Origin: Rhizophagus irregularis
Lineage: Eukaryota
Reading direction: 5' to 3'
DNA length: 64,000 bases
Assembly: GCF_026210795.1 (NCBI RefSeq)
Contig: NC_089434.1
Span: 4,464,001 to 4,528,000 of the forward strand
A program made the translations under genes and the position numbers. Positions within the stretch are counted from its first letter, which is position 1, and the number at the start of each line of letters is the position of its first letter. The notes under the pieces were generated by a model. It was not told where the DNA came from. It was given only the letters and a program-made list of their open reading frames with translations, and did no database searches. Shown one piece after another: positions 3,117 through 59,705 of the stretch.

Positions 3117-3774
3117 TAGGGATGGCAACGGTCACGGTCATTAACCGATTATGACCGGTCATGACCGTGACCGATATCGGTCGGTCAAGACTTCTGACCG
3201 ACCGTTTGACCGACAGTTTGACCGACCGGTTTGACCGACCGTTTGACCGATCATTATCACCGCAACATTTTTATTTAAAAAACGTTGCGAAAACGTTTTT
3301 TATTAATAATTTAACGTTTTTCGCAAACGGGTTTTAATTAATTTAACAAAAAACGTTGCGAAAACGTTTTTTATTAATAATTTAACGTTTTTCGCAAACG
3401 TTTTTAATTAATTTAACAAAAAAATGTTGCGAAAACGTTTTTTATTAATGATTTAACATTTTTCGCAAACGTTTTTAATTAATTTAACAAAAAACGTTGC
3501 GAAAACGTTTTTATTAATAATTTAATTAAAAAAAAACGTTTTCGCAACGTTTTTTAATTATTTTAATAAAAAAAAAACGGTTTCGCACGTTTTTTTAATT
3601 GCCTTAATAAAAACGCTGCGAAAATGTGTTTTATAATGATCGGTCAAACCGGTCGGTCAAACGGTCGGTCAAACGGTCAGCCATAGCGGTCGGTCAGAAC
3701 GGTCGGTCGGTCAAAGGTTCTTGACCGGTTATGACCGACCGATGACCGACCATGACCGACCGTTGCCATCCCTA
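3117..3774. mobile_element. hAT-type non-autonomous element (658 bp)
   Basis: TIR tagggatggcaacggtc / gaccgttgccatcccta; 8-bp TSD gtcccgtg at 3109-3116 and 3775-3782; dense subterminal GACCG repeats; internal ~70-bp aaaacgttgcgaaaacg repeats. Confidence 0.95.
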
Positions 3775-5706
3775 GTCCCGTGTTAGGAATGATGCATAGT
3801 ATTAGTTGTGGTTGGGCCTTGGCACTATTGCCTTAATATTTCCCTGAGAATTTGCATGTAAAATGAGAGGATTTTGATTTGGTATATTCTGTGGTTATAA
3901 TAATATTAATTAGAAACTTGAATGATTCATAAAAGAATAATTCATTAAAAAATGGATTAACTTATTCACTTACCATCCCTGTATCTTAATACACGGTTGC
4001 TAGTTCTCTTACAAACGTAGAAACAACATGATCGGGTAAAACGTCAGAGCTTAAAAAAGCCAAAACACACTAAGAGCTGAAGGTGGCCCCGATTGCAAGT
4101 TTCTTATTACGTAAGTTCCAAGTTTCATCTGTAGGGTTGGATACAATTCTCTCTTGATGACGGATGATAATTAATTGTTGAGGTGGAAAGAACTCTAGCA
4201 TCCACCTGTTCGTGTTAACTTTTATTTTGAGGTTTTGATTGTTTTCTAAAACATTTGATGGTTCCTTTCAGAAAGGCCCCTAAGGAGATCCAAATTCCAA
4301 TATTTTTGTTAAAATTTGTATAAGTGGACGTCATTTTGATTGAAAGCGGTTGCACTTAATAAGTAGTTATTATTGTAAAGGTATTTATGGAATTATGTGT
4401 AATTCTTTTCTACTATTCTGTTGCCATATAGCCTCTCATGATACTGCCACGCCTGATTCTGCCAATGTTTCCATTTCTTGAAGTTTGTATCCATACTATT
4501 ACTTCTGTAGCTGGTACTTGTTTCACTTTAAATGCTGTTGCACTTGCTGATGAGCTCACTGATGCTTCTACTTCTGCTAAAGCATACTAATCTATGGTAA
4601 TTATAAACTCTGGTTAAGGATAATCATATTTAATAATTTTAAGAACTGGTAATATCTTGACTCATAGGATGTTTTGATATTATTTAGATTGTTTGATATT
4701 TTTGACTGGTTATAGGATTAATTGATATATTTGATAGAGAACAAAAAAGGGGGAAACCATTTGATTTATCACAAATTCTTAACCTATTTATATTTAATTT
4801 TTAACACATGAAGCTTATCTGTTTTTAAGTAACACCTGGATGAAATTTCAAGATTTCAGTTTATGCTAACTCCAATTACCATTACAGCCACAAAATAAAC
4901 ATGTTAAGGCTTAAAATATAGGCTTAGTAATATTTACATTGCTAATCCTGAATCTTATCCAATATGTACACAGCATACATTATATATGATAACAGACTAT
5001 TCTACACTAACTAACTTTAAAGTACCTATTATTACATAGTATTTGGTAAAAATTGGTATAAAGATAGTTGAATTATAGAAAAAGACAAGCAATTAATATG
5101 TTATTAATAATCAATGATACCACTTTTATTAGCAGGATATTTTAAATTCTAAATTATACCAAACTTGTAAAGTATATGTATATATATAACTAGTGAGAAA
5201 ATTTATTCCTATGTTTATTATGAGTGGATTGACAAATTATATTGCATTCTTGATATTTATTTAATAAATAAATTACAATCTAATTACAATGCTTCAATTT
5301 TCTTAATAATAAATTTGTAAGTTATTTTCATCATTGACTAAACCTGACCATATTTGAGTAACTAATATACTGTTTTAAAATAAAATAAATTTTATCATAA
5401 ATTATACCATTGAAAATAGTTAACTAAAGAGACAATAGAATTATACTCCAAAGATCTTATACTAAAATTGAGTTTTAAATTGCAATTTGATCATTATTAC
5501 ACTTTATTCTATAATAACTATCATAATACAATATACAACTGAAGCTTGAATTTGTAATGTTAATCATTTATAGTACAAAAATCTTTCTTACTATAAATTC
5601 CAATTATGCATAAATAATTTTTATTTAACATTCTTATTCTTGAAAAGTCAAACTTTATTGGTAAAGTCAATAAAAAAAATTCTGGAAAGATAAATTGATT
5701 CAACCC

Positions 5707-7756
5707 ATTATAAAAGAATTGGAAGACACTTGATAATGATAGGAGACGAATATGACTTACACAATTCACCAAATTTAATACATTGCGAAGGTTGTTTTAG
5801 AAATATAAGTAAAAAGAAAGGAAAAAAGGAATGTCTGATTTATATAAACAATGACATTAGTAGAAAAATAGAAAAACGAAAAGAAAATGAATTCATAAAA
5901 CCTTACGAAACACTTAATAACATCTTAGAAAAGAATATCTGGTTGAAAAACCAAACAGAAGAAGAAAGAGTCGATATATTTTATAATAAGAAAATCGAAA
6001 TTATAGATAATATAATAAAAGCGAACGAGGAATTTATAAATATTATGAAAAATAGTATCTTCGAAAGATCAGATTTAGTAAATGATATCAAGAAATTTTT
6101 TATTATAATCGAAGTTTCAAAAAATAAATCGATAGTAGACGATAAAGGTAAACGATCAAGTTTATACAGCATAGCTTGGAAAATCAGGAATTTTAATATA
6201 AACAATAGTGACGACGAGATATTTTTTATGGCAAAATACGAAAGTGTGGTGGAAAATGAATTTAAAATAATTTTGAGAAGTTTAATTTTAGGACTAATGA
6301 TAATAACAGAAAATAGCGAAATAATTTTAGGATTAAATGATAATGTAGTCAAAGTAATTTTAGAATTTATTAATAATTGTAGCAATAGACGTAAAATAGA
6401 TAGCGATTATTATTTAGAATTACTTTTTATAGAAAATTTTTTGGAAAAAAATGAGATACAATTATTGGAAGTAGATGAGAAAATCTTAGATAATGTCATA
6501 GAATTAAAGACAAATTTAAAAGAACTTCTAAAAACCAAATCCATTACAGATATGATAAAAAATGAGTTCGAATTAATAGATGAGGCTTTAGTGGTAAACG
6601 AATTCAATTTGATATGGAAAAATAAAATTATAACAGGAGGCCTTAGAACATGGCGGAAAAAAATTACGAACGCTATTTGGAAAAACGAAATATTAAATAG
6701 CGAAAAACTTGATGATCTTTTTGTATACAATTATAAGAAGGAATTTGATTGGGTGTCTACTTTAAATTTTATAAGTAATAGAATTAATTTTTCCACAAGG
6801 CAATGCGGTGACAAAGACACGAGAGAACGATCATATAGAATCAAGAATATGTTGAGAGAACTTCCAACATATAGTATTTTATACAAAAGAGATACGAATA
6901 AAATAAATTCACCAATTTGTATAAGATGTGGGAAAGAAGAAGAGGTTTGGGAACATGTTTGGGTTTGCGAGGCCAACGAATTCTCAATCGATGAAATAAT
7001 TCAAGAATCACCATATAGATTTGAATTAGAACTAGAAGCACACGGCAAAAATAAAGAGATAGAAATACTTAGAGATCATCTCTGTAATTTTTTAATGATA
7101 CTCGAAAGTCCTTCATTAATATTACAAGGAAAAAGTAGAAAATGGGAATTGATCAGAGGAATTTTCAACGATAAATTTAATGACCTATCAAAAATAAAAG
7201 AAGAAAAGACGACGATTAAAGAACTTTGGAATTTTATATACGACGAATTAAAGAAAAGAATTTGGATACCACGATGCGAAGAAATTAAATTTCTAGAAGA
7301 AAAGGAAGGGATAACAAAATTGGATTTGAAATTAAGAAAGCAGAAACTGAAAGATGATCATAACGAAGAATCAGAATTAGAAAAAATTAAAAACAACAAA
7401 AATACAAAAACAAAAGAAAATAAAAATAAAAACAAGACAAACAAAATCAAAAATAATCAAATTAAAATAGTAACTTTGGGAAAGTTAACGAACGCAGTAA
7501 CAGATGGTTTAAATATAGATAAAATTTGGGATACATCAACGAAATTACCATTTTATTAGAATAGAAAATTTTACATAGTTTTATTTCAAGCACTAATTTT
7601 TAGTTTTAGTAATTTAGAAATTTTTATTTTTTTATTTTTTCGAAAATTACTTAGTTATAGGGTTTTACAAAATTTATTTTTGTTTAGCTCTAGGTATTTT
7701 TATATTTAATTATGTAATTGTTTTCGCAATTCTAAATAATTAATAAAATGCATTAC

Positions 7757-7787: not shown

Positions 7788-8334
7788 TTGATTCAACCCC
7801 TTCATAGTTCTCAATTATTCAATTGTGCAACATGAAATATGACTGTGCCCAATTTATTCCACATTTATTATAGTTAAATTAATTTGGTCGGCTATCATGT
7901 CATGATTATCATGTAAATCATGAGATTTGTGGCTTATCCAATTCCGGCTAAGTCAGATATTTTTTTTGACAAAATTTGTACACGTATGTATTTGTAATTT
8001 GTTCCTTTCATGTTGAAAAAAAAAAATTTTTGCCCTGTTATATGCTGCGGCCAATTGCATCGTATAAAATATCTTTTTCCAATTCTTACAACCAAAATTT
8101 TTTCTGAAACTTTAATATTTTATTTATTTGTTTTTTTCTTAAAACCGAAAAAATTTCTTTAATTGGTTTTTATTAGCTAAAAGTTTTAATTTTTTTAAAA
8201 ATATTTTATTTTCAGTAAAGTTGAATTTTTTTTATTATTACCTCTAAATATTAATCAAAATTTAATTGTTATATTAAGTTAAACTCATCAACTGTAGTGA
8301 ACAGGTTATAGTTAGTAAATAACCAAGAATTTTT

Positions 8335-8615
8335 CCAAAACAATAATAAGCCAATTTTCACAAACAGTATAATAAGCCAATTTCTAAGCCAAATTTCCAC
8401 AACAGTTTCAAAACAATAACAAGCCATAAGCCAATTTCCAGTTTAAAAGCAATAATAAGCCAATTTCTACAAACAGTTTCAAAACAATAATAAGCCAATT
8501 TCCACAAACAGTTTCAAACCAATAATAAGCCAATTTCCGCAAACAGTTAAAAACAATAATAAGCCAATTTCCACAAACAGTTTCAAAACAATAATAAGCC
8601 AAATAATAAGCTAAT
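8335..8615. repeat. Tandem minisatellite, ~35-bp unit, about 8 imperfect copies
   Basis: Unit aataataagccaatttccacaaacagtttcaaaac. It lies downstream of the hAT transposase and may be subterminal. Confidence 0.85.
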
Positions 8616-9973
8616 TTCTTTATTTGTCAAATCACACTTGTGGCTGGCACTATAAACATCAAATATCCTCCTATAGATTAGTGATGCAACTCTAAAATAT
8701 TAATGATTTATTATTTAAATTTTAGTTTCTAAAAATTGATTAACTAAAACAATAGGATTAAAAATCCAATGATATCGTCTAATACTGAATTAGTATGTGT
8801 TTGCATTTCTATTTCTCTTCAGAGATAATTTCACAAACAGTAGAAATACTTGCAATTTCTTTTAATTTTAATATACTAATTCATTCTTATATTTGTCAAA
8901 TAAATAAGAATGAATTTTGATATACTTAACATCAGGACTTGTACGTTTATCTCCAATCATCCATTTAGGTATGGAAAAATTTCGTTCACAACCTTACTTG
9001 TGAAGGGGTCATACCAAATAATCCTTATTTTTTAAAACTTATAGAACCCCACCAAAGTTCAAGTGTATCTATACCCATTTCAATTTTTGATCAAACCACC
9101 TAAATTGACTGAGAAGTTTTCTGCATTATTCTTCAGGATTTCAGGATAACCTAAGTTCTGCCAAAGAGTTGTAGCAGCAATTGCAGCATTTCTGAATCCA
9201 TCATCATTAACACCTAAAGCTAAAAACAATAATTTTAATAAAATTTTTAAAATGATAATCAAACTTAAATATTTTACCTTTATAGTAAGGATGAAGACAA
9301 TAACATAAAAAGGTAAGAAGAATGTTGAAATTCAAGATAATATAATTAAAAACTTGAATTGCTTCATACTTGTAAAGATTTGAAGTAGAAATATGGATTT
9401 AATCATTCGAACAAAACAATCAGCTAGAACAGCTGATTTTGCTTCAAGAATATTAATGCATTCTTTGATAAAAGCTCAAATTGAATTTGACGGCAATTTA
9501 TCCTCATCCTGCATCAAAAAATGAACTTCAGAATTTAAAATAATATCATTATGTTCTAATAATATCTATTAATAATCAAGTTAGTTTTAATTGTTAGTGA
9601 TTATATAAATAATAACATAATATCTATTAAAAAATCCTATCCAGGATGACGTAAAATGAATATATGATGAGCCCTATCTAGTTTTACACCATGTTTGTAA
9701 TCCTTCAATCTTAATTTTCATATTTTTTAAACCTTGGAATAGAATTGCAGAAGCTTGATGTGAATTATTAAAAAATCTTGTAATTTTTCCACGATCTAAA
9801 ATAAGATCTTTAATATTATCAAGTTTTACAAGATCGTCTGCCATTAAATTAATAGTATGAGCTATACATCTTAAATCCCAAATATGACTATACTTTTCCA
9901 CTCCAATTTTTTCTATAATTGCAGAAATTTTTGAAGCAAAGAACTTTCCTGTATGTGATTCTGTAGAATACTT

Positions 9974-11441
9974 CCCTATAAAAATTAATTGTCCGTAAAA
10001 TGTAATAGTAAATAATTGATAAATAACGGTTATATAGATGTCTAGTAATTTAACCATTTTATATATGTATTTTAAATGTTAAATATACGGAAATTTGAAA
10101 TCTAAATGTAAATTATTTGTTTATTAAATGTACTATTCTCACTAATATGTATATAACCCATTCTATTAGTTATTCATCTGTATAATCTACATCCTTATAT
10201 ATCACGTAATAAGTAGTTTTAATCAGAAAAAACCCTACACAATGGTCTATAGCAAATGCATCAATAAATTCATGCGCTCCAGATTTTTGAAATGAGATAA
10301 GACCTGCACTATCTTCTCTAACATCTGCAGTCCAATGAATATACGTTAACATATAAGTTACTTTGTCAAATTCGTAAGCAAGATAATATTCAACCTGTTC
10401 ATAAAAAAAATTAAATAAATTAAATTATTTTTTTAAAAAAAAAATAAAGTTTTGAAGTGTTGTTCAAGACGAAACTCACCTATCCAACGAACTAGAGCCA
10501 AAATCTACAAAATAGAAAAAAAATTTTATTATAAAGTTTCGAAGTGTTATTCAAAACGAAACTCACCTATCCAACGTCCAAGAACCAGAGCCGAAACCTA
10601 CAAAATAGAAAAAAGAAATTAATAAATTAAATTATTTTTTTTAAAAAAAAAAATAAAGTTTCAAAGTGTTTTTCGAAACGAAACTCACCTATCCAACGCC
10701 CAAGAGCAGAAACCTACAAAATAAAAGAAGGAAAAAAAATTTTTTTAAATGAAAAAGTTTCAAAGCGAAACGAAACTTTAATAAAAAAAAGTTTATCACA
10801 TATACACGTGATAATCTTTGCCAGCCTATAAAATATGTTCAACCAACTTCGGAAATGATATTCGTAAAGTCATGTGTCGAAATTTAACTTTGGCTGAAAC
10901 TTAGCCAAAAGTCACATGACCAAAAATTTTTGATTTTGACTAGTGCAATAGAAATAAAGAATCTATCGAAAAGCAGCAAATTGAAAAACAAAACAAATTG
11001 CCAAATAAAATCTTCAAATTTGTATGTACCTTTTAAATGTGTAATAAATAATTGATTTATAGTGTTAATATTAGAAAATCGACACCGCAGCTAACATTTC
11101 GTAAATCATCTCGTAAAAAAGACAAATGTTGGAAAACGTCTAATTGAAGATAATAATTCAAGCAAACCTGTCAATAAATGACGATATAAAAGAAAATAAA
11201 AGTCATAAATTTTACAATAGGAATTTACTATACGTAAATTGACCTTATTATGTAATGATTGCATTTTGCATTATGTTTAAACACGTTATTTGAATGTATG
11301 TTAAGTTAGTTCTTGTTTATGTTTACAATACAACTTACGAATATTTAATTAAAATTATGTTCAAATTATAAACAAACAATGATTTTCAAATAATATATGG
11401 TCAAATAACATACATTTTATGGAAATTGTGTTTTCATAGGG
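9974..11441 (-). mobile_element. Non-autonomous CCC...GGG TIR element with 3-bp TSD (CMC/CACTA-like), carrying a micro-exon array and a residual coding exon
   Basis: Ends ccctata (9974) / cataggg (11441); TSD ctt at 9971-9973 and 11442-11444. Excision rejoins the hAT reading frame. Confidence 0.85.
10170..10394 (-). pseudogene. Residual terminal exon, probably from a CMC-type transposase C-terminus
   Basis: After a CAG acceptor: VEYYLAYEFDKVTYMLTYIHWTADVREDSAGLISFQKSGAHEFIDAFAIDHCVGFF. The family assignment comes from recalled similarity and context only. Confidence 0.5.
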
Positions 11442-12161
11442 CTTACTTAAAGTGACTAAATATTCAAAAAAAGTTGGTTTATTATTATTAATCATTTCAT
11501 TTCCATTATGCATCGGTTTTGTTTTAAACCCAGATTTTTTAAAAAAAAATTTAAAAAATTTTCTTTTTTTCCTTCCTTCCGGTTCTTTTAAGGCCGTTTT
11601 ATTTTAATCAGTTTTTTAAACCAGATTTTCAATTAATTTAATTTTTTTCTTGCAAATTTTAATAAAATTTTGTTCATCTCTTTCATAAGACACTAGCCAC
11701 TCACTAGCCCCACCTTTGTTACAAGAACCTGGAGGTGTGTTTCAGAATACTTTCAAAGACTCTTTTTTTTAAAAAAAACATTTTAATACGCAATAACTTT
11801 TATTTATTTTTTTTTTTAGAAGAATGGCTCCCAATATAGTTTCGGAAATTTTGAAAAAATGTTAAAATGTTATTAATAGAGTTAAAAGGACATTTATCAT
11901 TATAGGAAAATTTATATCTATGTTTATTGAACAATTTAGTTTTATTATAGATTAGAATAATTCGTATGATTAGATTTAGGATAGAACAATTTAATATTTC
12001 TAAAATAAAGTTTATAGTACATCAATTTTAAAATAAATAAACTATAACTTTACTGCAACTTTAATATTTGTTTACTATATTAAACTTAAACATGCATTTA
12101 ATATAATTTAAATATACATTCACTATATGTTTTCGATTTCAATACTATTTTTGCACGAGCT

Positions 12162-12322
12162 CCCAGTAAATAGTTTTTATATAAATCTGTACCAAATGGG
12201 CTCATCTATATATAATTGGCTCTAGATTGGCTTAAATTTGGATTATTTTTTGCATAAATTTGAGCTAATTTCGAGCCAATGAGCCCGTTTGGTATAAATT
12301 TATACAAAAACAATTTACTGGG
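12162..12322. mobile_element. 161-bp MITE, CCCAGTA...TACTGGG, 3-bp TSD
   Basis: Imperfect TIR of about 40 bp; TSD gct at 12159-12161 and 12323-12325. Confidence 0.85.
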
Positions 12323-14518: not shown

Positions 14519-16326
14519 GAGAAATTTATTCCTCACCCTCCAATCACGTGAAATTTAACGTTTATAATTTTTTTTTTAAAAAAAATTAGTAACGCGTTTA
14601 TTAATTATGGTTATTTTAAAAAAAAATTACAGAAGACTATCTAAATACTACACTAAACTATTATGTAATTTAACTCTCGTTCCCCAATTATTTTTAATCG
14701 ATCTATCCACTAGTTACATCACCTAATAAACTATCTCTTGTTACTAATTTAATTAATTTTCTGTATTTTTTTCATTTAAACTATTTTTATTTGTTTTTTC
14801 ATTTTTTCTTTTCTTGATTTTTTATTACCGTCCCTATCATCATCATCATCTTTTCTTTTTTTCCTTTTTCTCTTATCCTTATTATCTATACCCTTATCTT
14901 TCTCTATTTCAGCCACTTCATCGTTCTTAACGTTTATAATTAGTACATGCGTCAATTGCGTCATCATATAAAACTATTTGTTTCGCTTTATTTTCTTTAG
15001 CAGCTGACGGCCAGAATTTTTTTTCTTTGGTATCAGGTATGTTTCTTTATTTTTTTTCTTCCTTATTTGTTTATTTAATATTACATTTCTAACTTCTTTC
15101 CTTTTTTCTTTCTTTTAAGTCTTTGGGCCTTTTGGTTTCGCGTTTAAAGGTATGTTTCCTCTTTTTTGTTTTCGTTCCTTACTTTTCATTTTTTAATTCC
15201 TTTTTCTTTTTTTTTCGGGTCTTTAGATTTTCGACTCTATGGTTAAAAATAAGTTTTTATTCTTTTTCTTTTTTTTCTTTGTTTTTTGTTCTTGCTTTTT
15301 ATTTCTAATACTTTTTTTTCTTTCTTCAGTAGGTTCTTCTTCGGGTTTGCAGTCAAAGGTGTGTCTTTGCTTTCCTTTTTATTTTGTTTTTTATATTTTG
15401 TTTCATACTAAATACTAACTATATTCTATTCTTTATTTTATGGGTTTCTCATTTACGGGTTTTGTCCTTTCTTTGTTTTAAATTTTTGTGGGTTGCTTTT
15501 CGTTCTTCTTCCCCCTTTTTGCTCTTTTTCGTTTCTCCTTCCCTTTTTCTTGTTTTCTTTCGTCCCTTCTTTTCTTATTATCTTTCATTCCTTCTTCCCT
15601 TTTCCTTGTTCTTTTTTATCCTCCTCCTTATTATTTTTCGTTTCTTCTCTTTTTTATTACTCTTATTCGTTCCCCCTTCTCTTTTTCTTACTTTTTTCAC
15701 CCTCTTTCTTTTCTCTTATCCTTTTTCGCTCCTCTTTTTTTTATTATTCTTTTTCTTCCTTTTCTTGTTCTTTTTTATTTCCTTTTCCTTTTTTCGCTCT
15801 TTCTCATTTTCATCTATTTTTTTCATCATGTTTCGTTCCCTATTGTTTTTTCGTCCTTTATTATCTTTTTTTCACCTTATCTTTATCTCCCATCATTTTT
15901 CATCATCTTTTCATTTTGTTCATCACCTTTTCATCTTTATTATTTCGTTCATTACATTTCATCTCTTATGTTTTTTTCGTTACCTAGTTTGTTTGTTGTT
16001 AAAACAAAATGTATATTTCTTGACTCGGAAGTAAAACCTGCCTGTTAGGTGATCATGTTTTTCTGATATATTACTCGTATGTAGCGCTCTTGTCTTTGAC
16101 TTGTTTTGTTATATATTTAGTAAATTAATAAACATCAATTATTTCTTTGCTATATAAAAAAAAATGTATATTTCTTGATTTTGATCGGTATTTCTTAAAA
16201 TACTTATGAAAATAAAGTCTTTGTTGTTAATTTTCTAATCAAAAACATAAATAAATTCGTGTACTGTTAATTAGCCAATCAACATTTAGGAGTGAGGACT
16301 CACCCGGTGTGAGGAATAACTCTATC
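14519..16326 (+). mobile_element. Non-autonomous TIR element (possibly Sola2-like) with micro-exons and a long polypyrimidine tract
   Basis: TIR gagaaatttattcctcac versus reverse complement gatagagttattcctcac (15/18); flanks ctac / ctat (imperfect 4-bp TSD). Confidence 0.55.
14570..14926 (-). mobile_element. Heavily 5'-truncated LINE tail
   Basis: 15-bp TSD ttaacgtttataatt at 14555-14569 and 14927-14941; T-run at the left end. The peptide IKLVTRDSLLGDVTSG..WGTRVKL resembles IKIVTLGKLTNAVTDG..WDTSTKL of the 5730-7559 ORF. Confidence 0.85.
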
Positions 16327-36282: not shown

Positions 36283-36514
36283 CCCTATAAAAAAATATTG
36301 TCCAAACACTGGTTCGGAAAATCGACCCCGTTCCGAACATTTACTTGACATTTATTGGACATTCATCATGACATTGTACGTTTTTAATGTGGTTAAAAAA
36401 TTCTCAATCTCCGCATCTTGTATTAAATTGTAACAAATATTGTATAATAACGTGCGAATGTTCGGAAAATTGACCCCATTCCGAATAATTATCGGACAAA
36501 TATTTTTTATAGGG
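36283..36514. mobile_element. 232-bp CCCTATA MITE, 3-bp TSD
   Basis: ccctataaaaaaatattgtcc / ggacaaatattttttataggg; TSD caa at 36280-36282 and 36515-36517. Confidence 0.9.
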
Positions 36515-37247: not shown

Positions 37248-37422
37248 CCCTATAAAACCGAAATGTGTTAAATTTGTTGTTCATGTGTAATAAGTGTCTA
37301 AAAAAGCACCATTTTGTCCAATTTATGTCTTATTACAAAAAAACGAAAATTAAACAAATGGTGCTCTTTTAGACATTTATTACACATGAACAACAAATTT
37401 AGCACATTTCGTTTTTATAGGG
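37248..37422. mobile_element. 175-bp hairpin CCCTATA MITE, 3-bp TSD
   Basis: Near-complete fold-back; TSD gga at 37245-37247 and 37423-37425. Confidence 0.9.
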
Positions 37423-38561: not shown

Positions 38562-39812
38562 CAGTGGTGTGCAAAAAAAATGACAATTTTTTTGAGTAAT
38601 GATCAGCAGGCATAACTTATCCGATTTTAGTCGTATCTACACAAATAAATATGCGTATGAAAGCCCCGTGATTACTTTATTTTTTAACGAAAAATTTTAA
38701 CCGTATAAAATGCCACTATCTAAGCAAGAAACTCAAAGACAAACGATATTACAATTCTGGAGGCAAGGAATACGTACTGCCGCCAAAATTCATTCTTTGA
38801 CAAAGATACCACTTAGGACAATATATAGGAACCTTAAAAAAATCAAAAAAACCGGAGATGTGAAACATAGAGGTGGCAATGGACGTATTAGTAAAATAAC
38901 GCAAAAGGCTGCTCGTGAAATTGGACAATATATTCGAAGAAAACCCACAATTACCGCCAAGTTCATTGCTGCCAAATTGGAAGATGTTGGTGTTAACGTC
39001 TCTCGCTCAACAGTTTCAAGGTATTTGACCAGTCACGGATACAAAAATGCACTCCCCCTTGCTACACCAATGCTTACTCCAGCCCATAAGCATAAACGTA
39101 TTGAATGGGCACAAAATCACATGAATGATGACTGGGCAAAATACTTTATTTAGTGATGAGACAGCTTTCCAGCTATTCCGCAACACAGTAAGACATTGGT
39201 ATAAAAAACAACGGCCAATTCGTCCCATACCAAAAGACCGAAGTAAAATTTTTGCATGGGGTGGTTTTTGCATAAGAGGTAAAACAAGTCTTTTTTGTTT
39301 TAGGGGTATAATGGATGGAAAATTTTACACAAAAATATTAGAAAGACAAATTCCAGAGGTGTACAGTATGTTAGGAGATAGTTGGCGGCTGCAACAAGAT
39401 AATGATCCTAAACATACTAGTCGGGTTGCTAAGGAATTTCTCAAAAATAATGTCCCAGAGGTTATGGACTGGCCATCCAATAGTCCAGATCTAAACCCCA
39501 TAGAAAACCTTTGGGCAATTGTTAAGAGAAATACAGAGTTGCGTAGACCAAAAAATCTTAATGAATTAGATGTTTTTTTGCATGAAAAATGGGTAAAAAT
39601 TCCAAATAACCTCCTAATTAATCTTGTAAATTCAATGCCGCAACGTTGTAGGGAGGTTATTGACAGAAATGGTGAACGAATACCATATTAATTTTTTTTA
39701 ATAAAGTCTACTATGTTTTAGCTTTAAAATAATACTTTTTATTTTTTGATTGGTTTATTGGTTAAAAAATTAACGTGACTTGAAAAATTGTCATTTTTTT
39801 TGCACACCACTG
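38562..39812 (+). mobile_element. Full-length Tc1/mariner DNA transposon (1251 bp)
   Basis: TIR cagtggtgtgcaaaaaaaatgacaattttt with a matching reverse complement; TA TSD at 38560-38561 and 39813-39814. Confidence 0.97.
38710..39691 (+). pseudogene. Tc1-family DD34E transposase with a single frameshift
   Basis: HTH region with GR..K; FSDET, QQDND, WPSNSPDLNPIENLW with 34 residues between the second D and E. One extra base at gactgggcaa (~39135) separates the two ORFs. Confidence 0.93.
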
Positions 39813-56239: not shown

Positions 56240-57480
56240 TTATAATTTAACCAATTAGAGAATAAATAATTCGTAGATTATAATTAAGATTATATTATAT
56301 TTACCGGTATAAATTTTACATAATCTTCAGGTGTATTAGGAACAGGTGTCTCCAAATAAAAGCATTTTTAACGGGAAATGTCCACTGGATATTTCCCATA
56401 ATAGTACACTAATGCATACTTATTGGGAAGATTGGACAAACCAAGATTTGCTAATTTAATATTTTGATGAATTAACATCATAATATTGTAGTGCTATTAT
56501 CAGATGCAATAAATAACAAATATTAAAATTATAATATAATAACAATATAACAATATAAAATAAGAAAAATAAGAATGTAAAACAAACGAAATTTACCAAA
56601 TCATCTTTCTTGACACTAAGAGTACCATCATCAGAAGTTTATTTAAAAAAAAAAAATTATTTTAGGTCTGTATATATATATATATCAAAAATATTTAAAA
56701 GAATTCATTATACCTCTCATATAGAGTCCTAATTCTTGAGGTAGAAATTCCACGCAGAAATTATAATTAACGTCAACATGATCCATGGAAGTATGGATCA
56801 TTTTCATTTTCAAATGGTCTTTCTTTTCTTTTACGATTTATTTCAGATGCTCCTATTCCTCTGATGGTTCTTATCCGCGGTATTTGCATCCAATTTATCG
56901 TTGGCTGTGAAGCTGCGGATTTGTCCATACCGCAAGAACTTTCCCTCAAGATCTAAGTACAAACCTCCATATAATCACCCTCAAATCTTGACATTAAAAG
57001 TACCGCCATCAGCGTATTCTAGCGAAGTTTATTTAAAAAAAAATTATTTTAGGTCTAAGGTAATTATATTTTGTGTATATATATATCAAAAATATTTAAA
57101 AGAATTCATTATACCTCTTATATACATTAAGAGAACCGCCATCAGCGTATTCTAACGAAGTTTATTTTTTAAAAAAATTTAAAGGTAATTATATTATGTA
57201 TATATCTATATCAAAAATATTTAAAAGAATTCATTATACCTCTTATATATCACAAATCTTGACACTAAGAGTACCGCCCGCAATCAGCGTATTCTAACGA
57301 AATTTATTTAAAAAAAATAAAAATATATTAGGTAATTATATTATGTATATATATATATATCAAAAAATATTTATTATACCTCTTATATTGGCGTAAAATA
57401 TAACAAGTTCAGCGGCAAATGCACTTGTTGTTCATACCTCTCTACTTTGAGGAGGACAAAGTGTTCTCTTTCTCTCCCTC
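56240..57480 (-). pseudogene. Tyrosine-kinase-like kinase pseudogene with tandemly amplified intron+exon unit
   Basis: LEYADGGT (repeated), LIHQNIKLANLGLS, VLLWEISSG, ETPVPNTPEDYVK followed by an intron donor. Confidence 0.75.
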
Positions 57481-58506: not shown

Positions 58507-59540
58507 GCTATCTGAGACCAGGATCTACAAATAAATTCTTAGCCAATCGGCGTTCCTTTGTTAGCCAACTTCCGCCTGCTTTTAAAGCTTTTCACAAGGA
58601 CGCAAGAATGTAAAGAAGAAATATCATCTTGTAATTCGAGCATAATCAATATAAGAATATCTGCATAAAGTTGAACCATAGCTATGATGAAAAGAAGAAT
58701 AAATAGTATGAATGATTATTATGTATGAATGAATAGTATGTATAAACGATTGAATAGAATGAAAAAAATTATAAATGTCAAAAACAACAAAATACATATA
58801 AAAAAAAAAATTCTTATTGTTACCAAATATGTTAATTTAGATGTCTGGTGGTTTGACTAATACAATGATTATTATAGATTTGCTATGTTCCGATTTCCGA
58901 TTTATATTGGCAAATTCCGAGTCGGCCGTTAGGTGTGAAAGGTATGGCTATCCGAGACCAGGATCTATTCACAAGGACGCAAGAATGTAAAGATGAAATA
59001 TCATCTTGTAATTCGAGCATAACCAATAAAGAATATCTGCGTAAAGTTGAACCATAGCTATGATGAAAAGAAGAATAAATAGTATAAATGATTATTATGT
59101 ATGAATGAGCAGTATGTATAAACGATTGAATATAATGAAAAAAATTATAAATGTCAAAACAACAAAATACGTATAAAAAAAAAAGTTCTTATTGTTACCA
59201 AATATGTTAATTTAGATGTCTGGTGGTTTGACTAATACAATGATTATGATAGATTTGCTATGTTCCGATTTCCGATTTATATTGGCAAATTCTGAGTTGG
59301 CCGTTAGGTGTGAAAGGTATGGCTATCCGAGACCAGGATCTATTTACAAGGATGCAAGAATGTAAAGATGAAATATCATCTTGTAATTCGAGCATAATCA
59401 ATAAGAGAATATCTGCATAAAGTTGAACCATAGCTATGATGAAAAGAAGAATAAATAGTATGAATGATTATTATGTATGAATGAATAGTATGTACAAACG
59501 ATTGAATAGAATAAAAAAAATTATAAATGTCAAAACTAAC

Positions 59541-59572
<32 letters not shown>

Positions 59573-59705
59573 AAAAAAAAGTTCTTATTGTTACCAAATA
59601 TATTAATTAGATGTCTGGTGGTTTGACTAATACAATGATTATTATAGATTTGCTATGTTCCGATTTCCGATTTATGTTGGCAAATCTGAGTCGGCCGTTA
59701 GGTGT
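58507..59705 (-). repeat. Tandem triplication (376-bp period) of an upstream region plus F-box start
   Basis: Start codons (cat on +) at 58677, 59053 and 59429, each beginning MVQLYADIL...LELQDDISSLHSC.LV.RSWS. Confidence 0.9.

What the first reader, a model, noticed from the sequence alone, without database searches (positions are those of the whole stretch)
10394..10780. Tandem micro-exon/intron array inside a CCC...GGG transposon
Seen: on the minus strand, three repeats of polypyrimidine-TTTGTAG | 25, 31 and 25 nt exon ending GTTGGATAG | GTGAGT (exons 10689-10713, 10567-10597, 10480-10504), followed by a CAG acceptor opening a coding exon at 10394. Splice signals are identical in all units while exon lengths and intron interiors drift. 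The exons look non-coding and each ends in AG|GT, so recursive splicing is also possible. Inference: an amplified spliced leader kept by a non-autonomous element.
Basis: partly seen in the sequence, partly recalled or inferred. Interest (0 to 1): 0.8.

Follow-up and report, generated by a model that had tools for sequence, protein, structure and literature searches.

The report
Spliced micro-exon array in fungal transposon
A small, defective jumping gene of a mycorrhizal fungus carries a head-to-tail run of 25-31-base exons that public sequence data show being spliced together into an RNA that likely makes no protein, an unusual layout within a well-known transposon group.

Summary
Three units on the minus strand each hold a 25, 31 or 25 nt exon ending GATAG and a 62-91 nt GT-AG intron. 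They lie in a 1,468-bp CCC...GGG element (9974-11441; TIR 24/31; 3-bp TSD) inserted into a DUF659 transposase ORF. The host is likely Rhizophagus irregularis. The 'coding exon' is the last 74 codons of an EnSpm/CACTA (tnp2) transposase; its CAG acceptor lies in the conserved FYG-x motif, so it is likely a cryptic site left by an internal deletion. Splicing is seen: one contig (run kind guessed as RNA) identical to the window lacks intron 3. Poly(A) reads of two samples, plus a contig from another study, show chains of at least three unit exons from a sister copy, while a DNA-like run has an intron after the same exon. Splicing is partial and expression low; introns 1 and 2 of this copy were not seen spliced. 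Stops close all three frames. Recursive splicing is not supported. No autonomous parent was found, so 'leader' is inferred. Verdict: new variant of a known kind, interest 0.45.

The parts
9974..11441 (-). Non-autonomous EnSpm/CACTA-type DNA transposon with CCC...GGG ends, 1,468 bp
   Evidence: TIR and TSD; excision in silico restores the interrupted ORF; tnp2 remnant
11411..11441 (-). Terminal inverted repeat at the 5' end with respect to the transcript, starts CCCTAT
   Evidence: 24 of 31 bases match the other arm
9974..10004 (+). Terminal inverted repeat at the 3' end, starts CCCTAT
9971..9973 (+). 3-bp target-site duplication, left copy (CTT)
11442..11444 (+). 3-bp target-site duplication, right copy (CTT)
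10781..11410 (-). 5' part of the element, role unknown; presumed to hold the promoter or first exon; shared with sister copies
   Evidence: Exact 8-mer peptides from it occur in gene models P0002 and P0011; raw RNA depth was zero in 10734-11057 and near zero up to 11462
10714..10780 (-). Partial unit 0: intron-like, has the acceptor, lacks the GT donor
   Evidence: unit alignment
10689..10713 (-). Micro-exon 1, 25 nt
   Evidence: sequence; not testable by reads: 10617-10757 was skipped as repeat and lay outside
10598..10688 (-). Intron 1, 91 nt, GT-AG
   Evidence: sequence; the equivalent acceptor is used in sister-copy reads (loose ends at 10600)
10567..10597 (-). Micro-exon 2, 31 nt
   Evidence: sequence; sister-copy versions are joined to unit exons on both sides
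10505..10566 (-). Intron 2, 62 nt, GT-AG
   Evidence: sequence; its 3' 36 nt are still present in X4 record 9, so it is not shown spliced in this copy
10480..10504 (-). Micro-exon 3, 25 nt
   Evidence: joined to 10394 in X4 record 9, 0 differences over 10478-10540
10395..10479 (-). Intron 3, 85 nt: array donor plus a likely cryptic CAG acceptor inside former coding sequence
   Evidence: absent from X4 record 9; FYG motif in relatives
10170..10406 (-). C-terminal remnant of a tnp2 (EnSpm/CACTA) transposase; F-Y-E-Q at 10406-10395, then 74 codons from 10394 to the stop
   Evidence: (E 2e-10 to P0027)
9677..9970 (-). Interrupted host ORF, downstream piece (DUF659, likely a hAT transposase remnant)
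   Evidence: PF04937 E 7e-6, below the curated cut-off; 63% identical to P0036
11445..11501 (-). Interrupted host ORF, upstream piece
   Evidence: colinear with P0036 across the empty site; alone it gave no BLAST alignment

Best explanation
This is a non-autonomous EnSpm/CACTA-type transposon in which one short exon-plus-intron unit has been tandemly repeated; the spliceosome removes the small GT-AG introns and joins the 25-31 nt exons into a chain that is closed by stop codons in all frames and likely served as the 5' untranslated part of the parent transposase transcript. Shown: the element's ends and insertion site, the tnp2 remnant, removal of intron 3 in a sequence identical to this copy, exon-to-exon chains in a sister copy, and the closed frames. 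Inferred: an internal deletion fused the T-rich end of the last array intron to the TTT TAT codons near the transposase C-terminus, where an existing CAG became the new acceptor. Also inferred: the shortened element was then copied in trans to several loci, and unit number changes by slippage or unequal exchange. The expansion is likely close to neutral, since each added unit removes most of itself by splicing and adds only about 28 ATG-free bases to the RNA.
For: Ends, TSD and rank among 8,266 pairs. The empty site gives a stop-free 47-aa peptide colinear with P0036. The remnant matches tnp2 proteins: P0010 carries PF02992, E 2.6e-16; window vs P0027 E 2e-10. In 29 relatives under 70% identity, some near-redundant, the residues before the acceptor are F 17, Y 24, G 24; the window reads F-Y-E-Q. 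X4 record 9 (341 nt, depth 4.5, 0 differences over 10478-10540) continues directly into window 10392-10363. Loose ends at 10565 and 10600 are further unit exons ending GATAG: X21 8 and 6 of 44 reads laid, X22 6 and 4 of 38, and X4 record 10 on both sides. In X17 the same upstream exon variant is followed by an intron start (loose end at 10580). A joint from an exon-2-type unit to the remnant was seen in 8 reads in 3 of 4 runs. Stops fall at spliced positions 25, 56, 69 and 81, and every one of 7 exon subsets ends in an in-frame TAG before the remnant. Unit-like peptides occur in 5 R. irregularis gene models (6 hits among 92 proteins scanned, 1 a chance hit).
Against: X4 is only guessed to be RNA, and record 9 has depth 4.5. 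None of the raw reads was 99% or more alike to the window, so they come from other copies or strains. X21, X22 and X23 are one study and two samples; X24 showed no such joint. Most reads crossing the exon-2 acceptor run on into intron-like sequence (X21 depth about 30 there against about 40 on the exon), so splicing is partial. Introns 1 and 2 of this copy were not seen removed. The joint is marked 'between: not known' and may contain other micro-exons. The libraries look unstranded, so the strand rests on the GT-AG ends. No transcription start and no autonomous parent were found. The lack of ATG in the array is weak evidence (P about 0.09). Near-neutral expansion was not tested.
Confidence: 0.68

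Rival explanations
1. The array is kept by selection as an expression or anti-silencing device: several short, well-spliced introns near the 5' end would mark the transposon RNA as self or raise its output, and non-autonomous copies inherit it.
For: In X17 contigs no substitution is listed at the 17 positions 10558-10574 (exon end and donor), against 12 of 23 positions in the rest of exon 2. In Cryptococcus, stalled spliceosomes can trigger siRNA production (passage in PMC6643885 citing Dumesic 2013). CMC-EnSpm elements are expressed in R. irregularis (PMC8647823 passages). Unchecked AI notes describe similar arrays in Plavaka-type elements of diatoms (leads only).
Against: The conservation figure is biased, because alignments seed on the shared core and exon CpG sites mutate fast. 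Two X17 contigs have lost the acceptor G, one has an insertion at the exon end, and the +5 G varies in RNA reads. Splicing is partial. No small-RNA or methylation data were available.
Confidence: 0.17
2. The repeats are internal transposase- or TnpA-binding repeats, and the splicing is incidental noise on AT-rich sequence.
For: Tandem and subterminal repeats are common in CACTA elements (recalled; SmTRC1 has a tandem-repeat region, PMC1636069). Expression is low and most reads are unspliced.
Against: The conserved core coincides with the splice signals. The array lies about 430 and 660 bp from the ends and has no mirror copy at the other end. Joins are base-exact at GT-AG in runs of two studies.
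Confidence: 0.07
3. The units are recursive-splicing ratchet points, so the region is removed stepwise and the micro-exons are intermediates.
For: Exons 1 and 2 begin with GT directly after a pyrimidine tract and AG, the AG|GT juxtaposition that defines RS sites (PMC8758631 passages). Exon skipping cannot be excluded for the joint.
Against: Poly(A) reads hold chains of included micro-exons. The regenerated site GTTTC is a poor donor next to GTGAGT. Exon 3 starts with AT. The introns are 62-91 nt, whereas RS is described for introns over 10 kb.
Confidence: 0.04
4. The array is a coding micro-exon gene that makes variable peptides, as in schistosome MEGs, or is fused to the transposase tail.
For: Public gene models translate the units and join them to the remnant (P0015, P0039, P0040, P0087, P0090).
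Against: Exon lengths are 3n+1 and each ends in TAG, so all three frames close within 81 nt; there is no ATG; every subset stops just before the remnant. The models use different frames of the same unit, as expected of prediction artefacts. The Atlas gave no hit above 0.79 for the P0040 peptide.
Confidence: 0.04

Closest known systems
SmTRC1 of Schistosoma mansoni and the CCC-ended TRC elements (CACTA superfamily; PMC1636069: abstract, parts 1-2 of 6 and passages read)
   Same: CCC termini, Transposase_21 family, internally truncated copies, and spliced transcripts that omit most of the transposase ORF and probably come from truncated copies.
   Different: SmTRC1 has a 2-bp TSD (3 bp here) and a 54-bp TIR. 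Its tandem repeat is described as 3', and the passages read do not describe the repeat units as exons. Here each unit is one exon plus one intron.
CMC-EnSpm elements of Rhizophagus irregularis (PMC8647823 and PMC11075540, passages read)
   Same: Same superfamily and likely the same host; reported as recently expanded and transcribed.
   Different: The words 'intron' and 'spliced' do not occur in either main text, so no exon-intron structure is described there. Their repeat libraries and supplements were not examined and may hold this family's consensus.
Plavaka A/B and fungal EnSpm with CAC ends (CMCT clade; PMC12730594: abstract and passages read)
   Same: Related clade; 3-bp TSD as in fungal EnSpm and some PlavakaB.
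   Different: Termini are TGT..ACA, CATCA..TGATG or CAC..GTG, not CCC..GGG. The relatives here hit PF02992, and no Plavaka family was reported for them.
Schistosome micro-exon genes
   Same: Runs of very short exons in tandem.
   Different: MEG exons are mostly frame-symmetric and coding. These are 3n+1, end in TAG and lie inside a transposon.
Recursive splice sites and RS-exons of Drosophila and vertebrates (PMC8758631 passages)
   Same: AG|GT at the start of exons 1 and 2.
   Different: Short introns, exons included in poly(A) RNA, weak regenerated donor.

Membership tests
EnSpm/CACTA (CMC) DNA transposon, non-autonomous derivative | Terminal inverted repeats with a CAC or CCC core | tested here: met
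   CCCTAT ends at 9974 and 11441, 24/31
EnSpm/CACTA (CMC) DNA transposon, non-autonomous derivative | 2-3 bp target-site duplication at a precise insertion | tested here: met
   CTT on both sides; the empty site restores the host ORF, colinear with P0036
EnSpm/CACTA (CMC) DNA transposon, non-autonomous derivative | tnp2 / Transposase_21 homology | tested here: met
   The remnant has no Pfam hit itself but aligns to the C-terminus of P0027 (E 2e-10), near-identical to P0010, which carries PF02992
EnSpm/CACTA (CMC) DNA transposon, non-autonomous derivative | Dispersed copies and an autonomous partner | tested here: inconclusive
   Sister copies are indicated by 39 variant contigs in X17 and by gene models in different contexts; no autonomous parent found, and no genome was held
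Plavaka A/B | Termini TGT..ACA or CATCA..TGATG | tested here: not met
   Ends are CCC..GGG (definition from PMC12730594)
Spliceosomal micro-exon array | GT-AG introns removed exactly in RNA but present in DNA | tested here: met
   Intron 3 is absent in X4 record 9; exon chains in X21, X22 and X4; intron start after the same exon in X17; X17 record 1 is unspliced and identical over 10452-10572
Spliceosomal micro-exon array | All three introns of this very copy spliced in one transcript | tested here: inconclusive
   The exon 1 region was skipped; part of intron 2 is retained in X4 record 9
5' untranslated leader of the transposase gene | Lies between the transcription start and the start codon of an intact parent | not testable with these tools
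   No parent locus and no start-site data; only orientation and lack of ATG point to it
Recursive splicing | Long intron removed stepwise, exons excluded from mature RNA | tested here: not met
   Introns of 62-91 nt; exons included
Recursive splicing | Lariat intermediates from the regenerated donor | not testable with these tools
   Needs nascent or lariat sequencing
Coding micro-exon gene (MEG-like) | Frame-preserving exons in an open reading frame | tested here: not met
   Lengths 25, 31, 25; stops in all three frames; no ATG

The most novel reading that the evidence does not exclude
CMC-clade transposons grow arrays of self-splicing-out exon-intron cassettes as a selected device that licenses their RNA against host silencing. 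In arbuscular mycorrhizal fungi, the non-autonomous copies spread these portable splice cassettes next to host genes, where they trap transcripts and account for part of the fungi's many orphan gene models.
Probability: 0.15. Interest if true: 0.72.

Novelty: new variant of a known kind. Interest (0 to 1): 0.45.

Why it matters
It gives direct evidence that a tandem repeat inside a DNA transposon can be a working exon-intron cassette whose copy number likely varies between family members. That makes intron gain by unit duplication, and the link between splicing and transposon silencing in fungi, testable with public long reads and small-RNA data. It also has a practical side: the array and its cryptic acceptor enter public R. 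irregularis gene models as 'hypothetical proteins' and as tails on real genes (for example kelch models P0003 and P0011, against P0012 without the tail), so such models should be treated with suspicion. Without a shown function it remains a structural curiosity in a known superfamily.

Tried and rejected
No whole genome was held, so copies could not be aligned directly. The pattern scan of metagenome contigs gave 1 locus, L001, with 52% GC and no similarity beyond about 30 bases: chance. Viral contigs gave 0 loci for P0010 and 10 single chance matches for a 17-mer. Genome contigs was not scanned, as it is prokaryotic. The run search listed no indexed holder on record as RNA; this is no evidence either way. 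CACTA words at 10140 and 10945 were first considered as the ends and rejected: they match only over the first 5 bases and have no TSD. Read depth at 10399-10450 and the joints to 11762-11818 come from unrelated AT-rich or poly(A) reads and were ignored. Rfam found 0 matches at E up to 1 in 9900-11500. Atlas searches with unit-derived peptides gave only leads under 0.9. BLAST of the 20-aa upstream host piece alone against P0036 gave nothing; the in-script empty-site alignment did. Plavaka membership was rejected on termini. Earlier-finding look-ups by place, by sequence and by the first word set returned nothing. Literature searches for such an array returned nothing relevant: 1 listed, title on Rhizoctonia; 1 listed, a review; 0; 8 listed; passages of 2 read; 3 listed; passages of 1 read; 0; 0. 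The library lacks most subscription journals and Repbase, and no supplements were opened.

Full report
Observation. Each has TTTTGTAG before it and GATAG|GTGAGT at its end, and the introns are 91, 62 and 85 nt. A partial unit without a donor lies at 10780-10714. The shared 19-mer occurs three times and nowhere else in the window at up to 3 mismatches; shuffles give at most 1.

Host and element. Protein relatives of the downstream exon come from Rhizophagus irregularis, R. diaphanus and Funneliformis geosporum. Some R. irregularis gene models are identical to this locus, so the host is likely R. irregularis. No genome was held. A scan for CCC...GGG ends found 9974 and 11441: 24 of 31 bases complementary, with CTT duplicated on both sides. 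This pair ranks third of 8,266 pairs tested, and three other high-ranking pairs in the window also carry 3-bp duplications. Cutting out the 1,468 bp and one TSD copy in a script restores a stop-free reading frame, colinear across the site with the DUF659 protein P0036. The element is therefore a precise insertion into an older transposase ORF; that DUF659 marks hAT transposases is recalled.

The 'coding exon'. The 74 codons from 10394 have no Pfam hit but align to the C-terminus of long R. irregularis transposases (E 2e-10) of the PF02992/tnp2 family. A profile-free search found 53 relatives. Of the 56 proteins aligned (two over 1,200 aa were left out), 29 were under 70% identical, aligned from the exon start and had upstream sequence. 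Among these 29, some near-redundant, the residues just before the exon are F in 17, Y in 24 and G in 24. The window's last four 'intron' codons read F-Y-E-Q. The CAG acceptor thus sits in former coding sequence. The simplest reading is an internal deletion that fused the T-rich end of the last array intron to these codons (inference). The long tnp2 proteins found are only 40% identical to the remnant, so the autonomous parent remains unidentified.

Splicing. The run search listed 24 runs and no indexed holder on record as RNA. Four raw-read runs were laid on 9600-12000. Eight reads in three runs (X21 1, X22 3, X23 4; X24 0) link an exon-2-type unit to the remnant. The skip of 168 fits the 172-nt GT-AG span once the 2+2 shared bases are counted, but the tool marks the letters between as not known. 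These reads carry other letters than the window, and 10617-10757 (exon 1) was skipped. A second lay on 10452-10614 was more telling. X4 record 9 (run kind guessed as RNA; 341 nt, depth 4.5) is identical to 10478-10540 and continues straight into 10392-10363 (checked): intron 3 is gone, while part of intron 2 is still there. In X21 (8 and 6 of 44 reads laid), X22 (6 and 4 of 38) and X4 record 10 (depth 52.5), the loose ends on both sides of an exon-2-type unit are further units of 30 and 31 nt ending GATAG, read by eye from the printed consensus. This is a chain of at least three micro-exons from a sister copy. In the DNA-like run X17 (39 contigs laid) the same upstream exon variant is followed by an intron start, one contig is identical and unspliced over 10452-10572, and none of the 6 loose ends shown is an exon-exon join (9 rows over all runs were not shown).

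Limits of the read evidence. Splicing is partial: X21 depth is about 30 in the intron just upstream of exon 2 against about 40 on the exon. Expression is low (44 of 11 million reads). No raw read was 99% alike to the window. X21-X23 are one study and two samples. The libraries look unstranded, so the strand rests on the GT-AG ends.

In X17 no substitution is listed at the 17 positions covering the exon end and donor (10558-10574), against 12 of 23 positions in the rest of exon 2 and 6 of 17 in the adjoining intron (10541-10557). The acceptor G is changed in 2 contigs, one contig has an insertion at the exon end, and the +5 G varies in RNA reads. This points the expected way but is biased by alignment seeding and by CpG sites in the exon.

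Coding capacity. All three exons are 3n+1 long and end in TAG. The spliced 81-nt chain has stops in all frames and no ATG, and each of the 7 exon subsets ends in an in-frame stop just before the remnant. The missing ATG alone is weak (P about 0.09). Public gene models nevertheless translate the units: unit-like peptides occur in P0015, P0039, P0040, P0087 and P0090 (6 of 92 proteins hit, one by chance), in differing frames and numbers. By eye P0040 has about five. These models suggest that unit number varies between copies, but they are predictions. Peptides from the element's 5' part also appear in an R. diaphanus model (P0002) and at the end of a kelch-gene model (P0011).

Mechanism. Shown: precise insertion, tnp2 remnant, canonical splicing with exon inclusion, closed frames. 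Inferred: origin as the 5' untranslated region of the parent transcript, cryptic acceptor after deletion, spread in trans, and near-neutral growth of a cassette that removes most of itself. Overall confidence is 0.68. A selected anti-silencing or expression role (0.17) is compatible with the anatomy. It has a precedent in Cryptococcus, where stalled spliceosomes can trigger siRNA production (passage in PMC6643885; the primary paper was not read), but it was not tested. Recursive splicing (0.04) fits only the AG|GT at two exon starts: it is described for introns over 10 kb with exons mostly excluded (PMC8758631 passages). Incidental splicing of binding repeats (0.07) and a coding micro-exon gene (0.04) fit poorly.

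Comparison. The element meets the tested EnSpm/CACTA features. The nearest described case is SmTRC1, with CCC ends, a tandem-repeat region and spliced RNAs from truncated copies (PMC1636069; abstract, parts 1-2 of 6 and passages); there the repeat units are not described as exons and the TSD is 2 bp. It is not Plavaka by termini (PMC12730594, abstract and passages). Two R. irregularis TE papers report expressed CMC-EnSpm without exon structure (passages), and passages of the long-read annotation paper do not mention it (PMC10234402). Searches found no description of such an array. Repbase, subscription journals and supplements were not seen and could hold it. Unchecked AI notes on similar arrays in diatom Plavaka-type elements are leads only.

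Verdict. A real and spliced feature: a new variant of a known transposon kind, with function unproven. Interest 0.45.

Noticed in passing
window 37248-37422, 12162-12322, 36283-36514: Three short CCC...GGG elements with TIR matches of 29, 27 and 22 of 31 and 3-bp TSDs (GGA, GCT, CAA); 13 CCCTAT(A/G)A words lie in the window. Likely MITEs of the same superfamily.
   Followed up: partly
window 14700-16050 (+): Pyrimidine-rich region with further micro-exon-like candidates at about 15001-15036 and 15330-15358; possibly a second, unrelated chain of short exons. No reads were laid.
   Followed up: no
window 56608-57388: Tandem array of about 125-140 bp units with GC-richer cores in AT-rich spacers; it did not pass the micro-exon scan.
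   Followed up: no
window 10950-11183 (+): Lysine-rich, coding-looking stretches on the opposite strand inside the element's 5' part; may be the remnant of a second, divergent gene.
   Followed up: no
window 10263-10348: RNA reads of a sister copy (X21 3, X23 2) skip 84 bases of the transposase remnant, with 9 other letters between in X21 and without GT-AG ends; likely a DNA deletion in that copy.
   Followed up: no
window about 8075-11730 (-): Likely extent of the interrupted DUF659 element, with decayed end sequences and a 35-bp minisatellite at 8336-8602; ends and TSD not confirmed.
   Followed up: partly
window 5694-7559 (+): 621-aa open frame that looks like the 3' part of a non-LTR retrotransposon (only a weak zf-RVT hit, E 0.13).
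   Followed up: partly
window 38701-39691 (+): Tc1/mariner-type transposase split into two overlapping frames (HTH_Tnp_Tc3_2 E 1.6e-20, DDE_3 E 2.8e-14).
   Followed up: partly
window 58591-59705 and 3117-3774: A 376-bp unit repeated 2.9 times at 92% match, and a large imperfect inverted repeat with internal short repeats.
   Followed up: no
proteins P0003, P0011, P0012: Two models of a kelch-repeat gene end in this element's remnant while a third does not: a sister copy likely sits at the gene's 3' end; whether it traps real transcripts is untested.
   Followed up: partly
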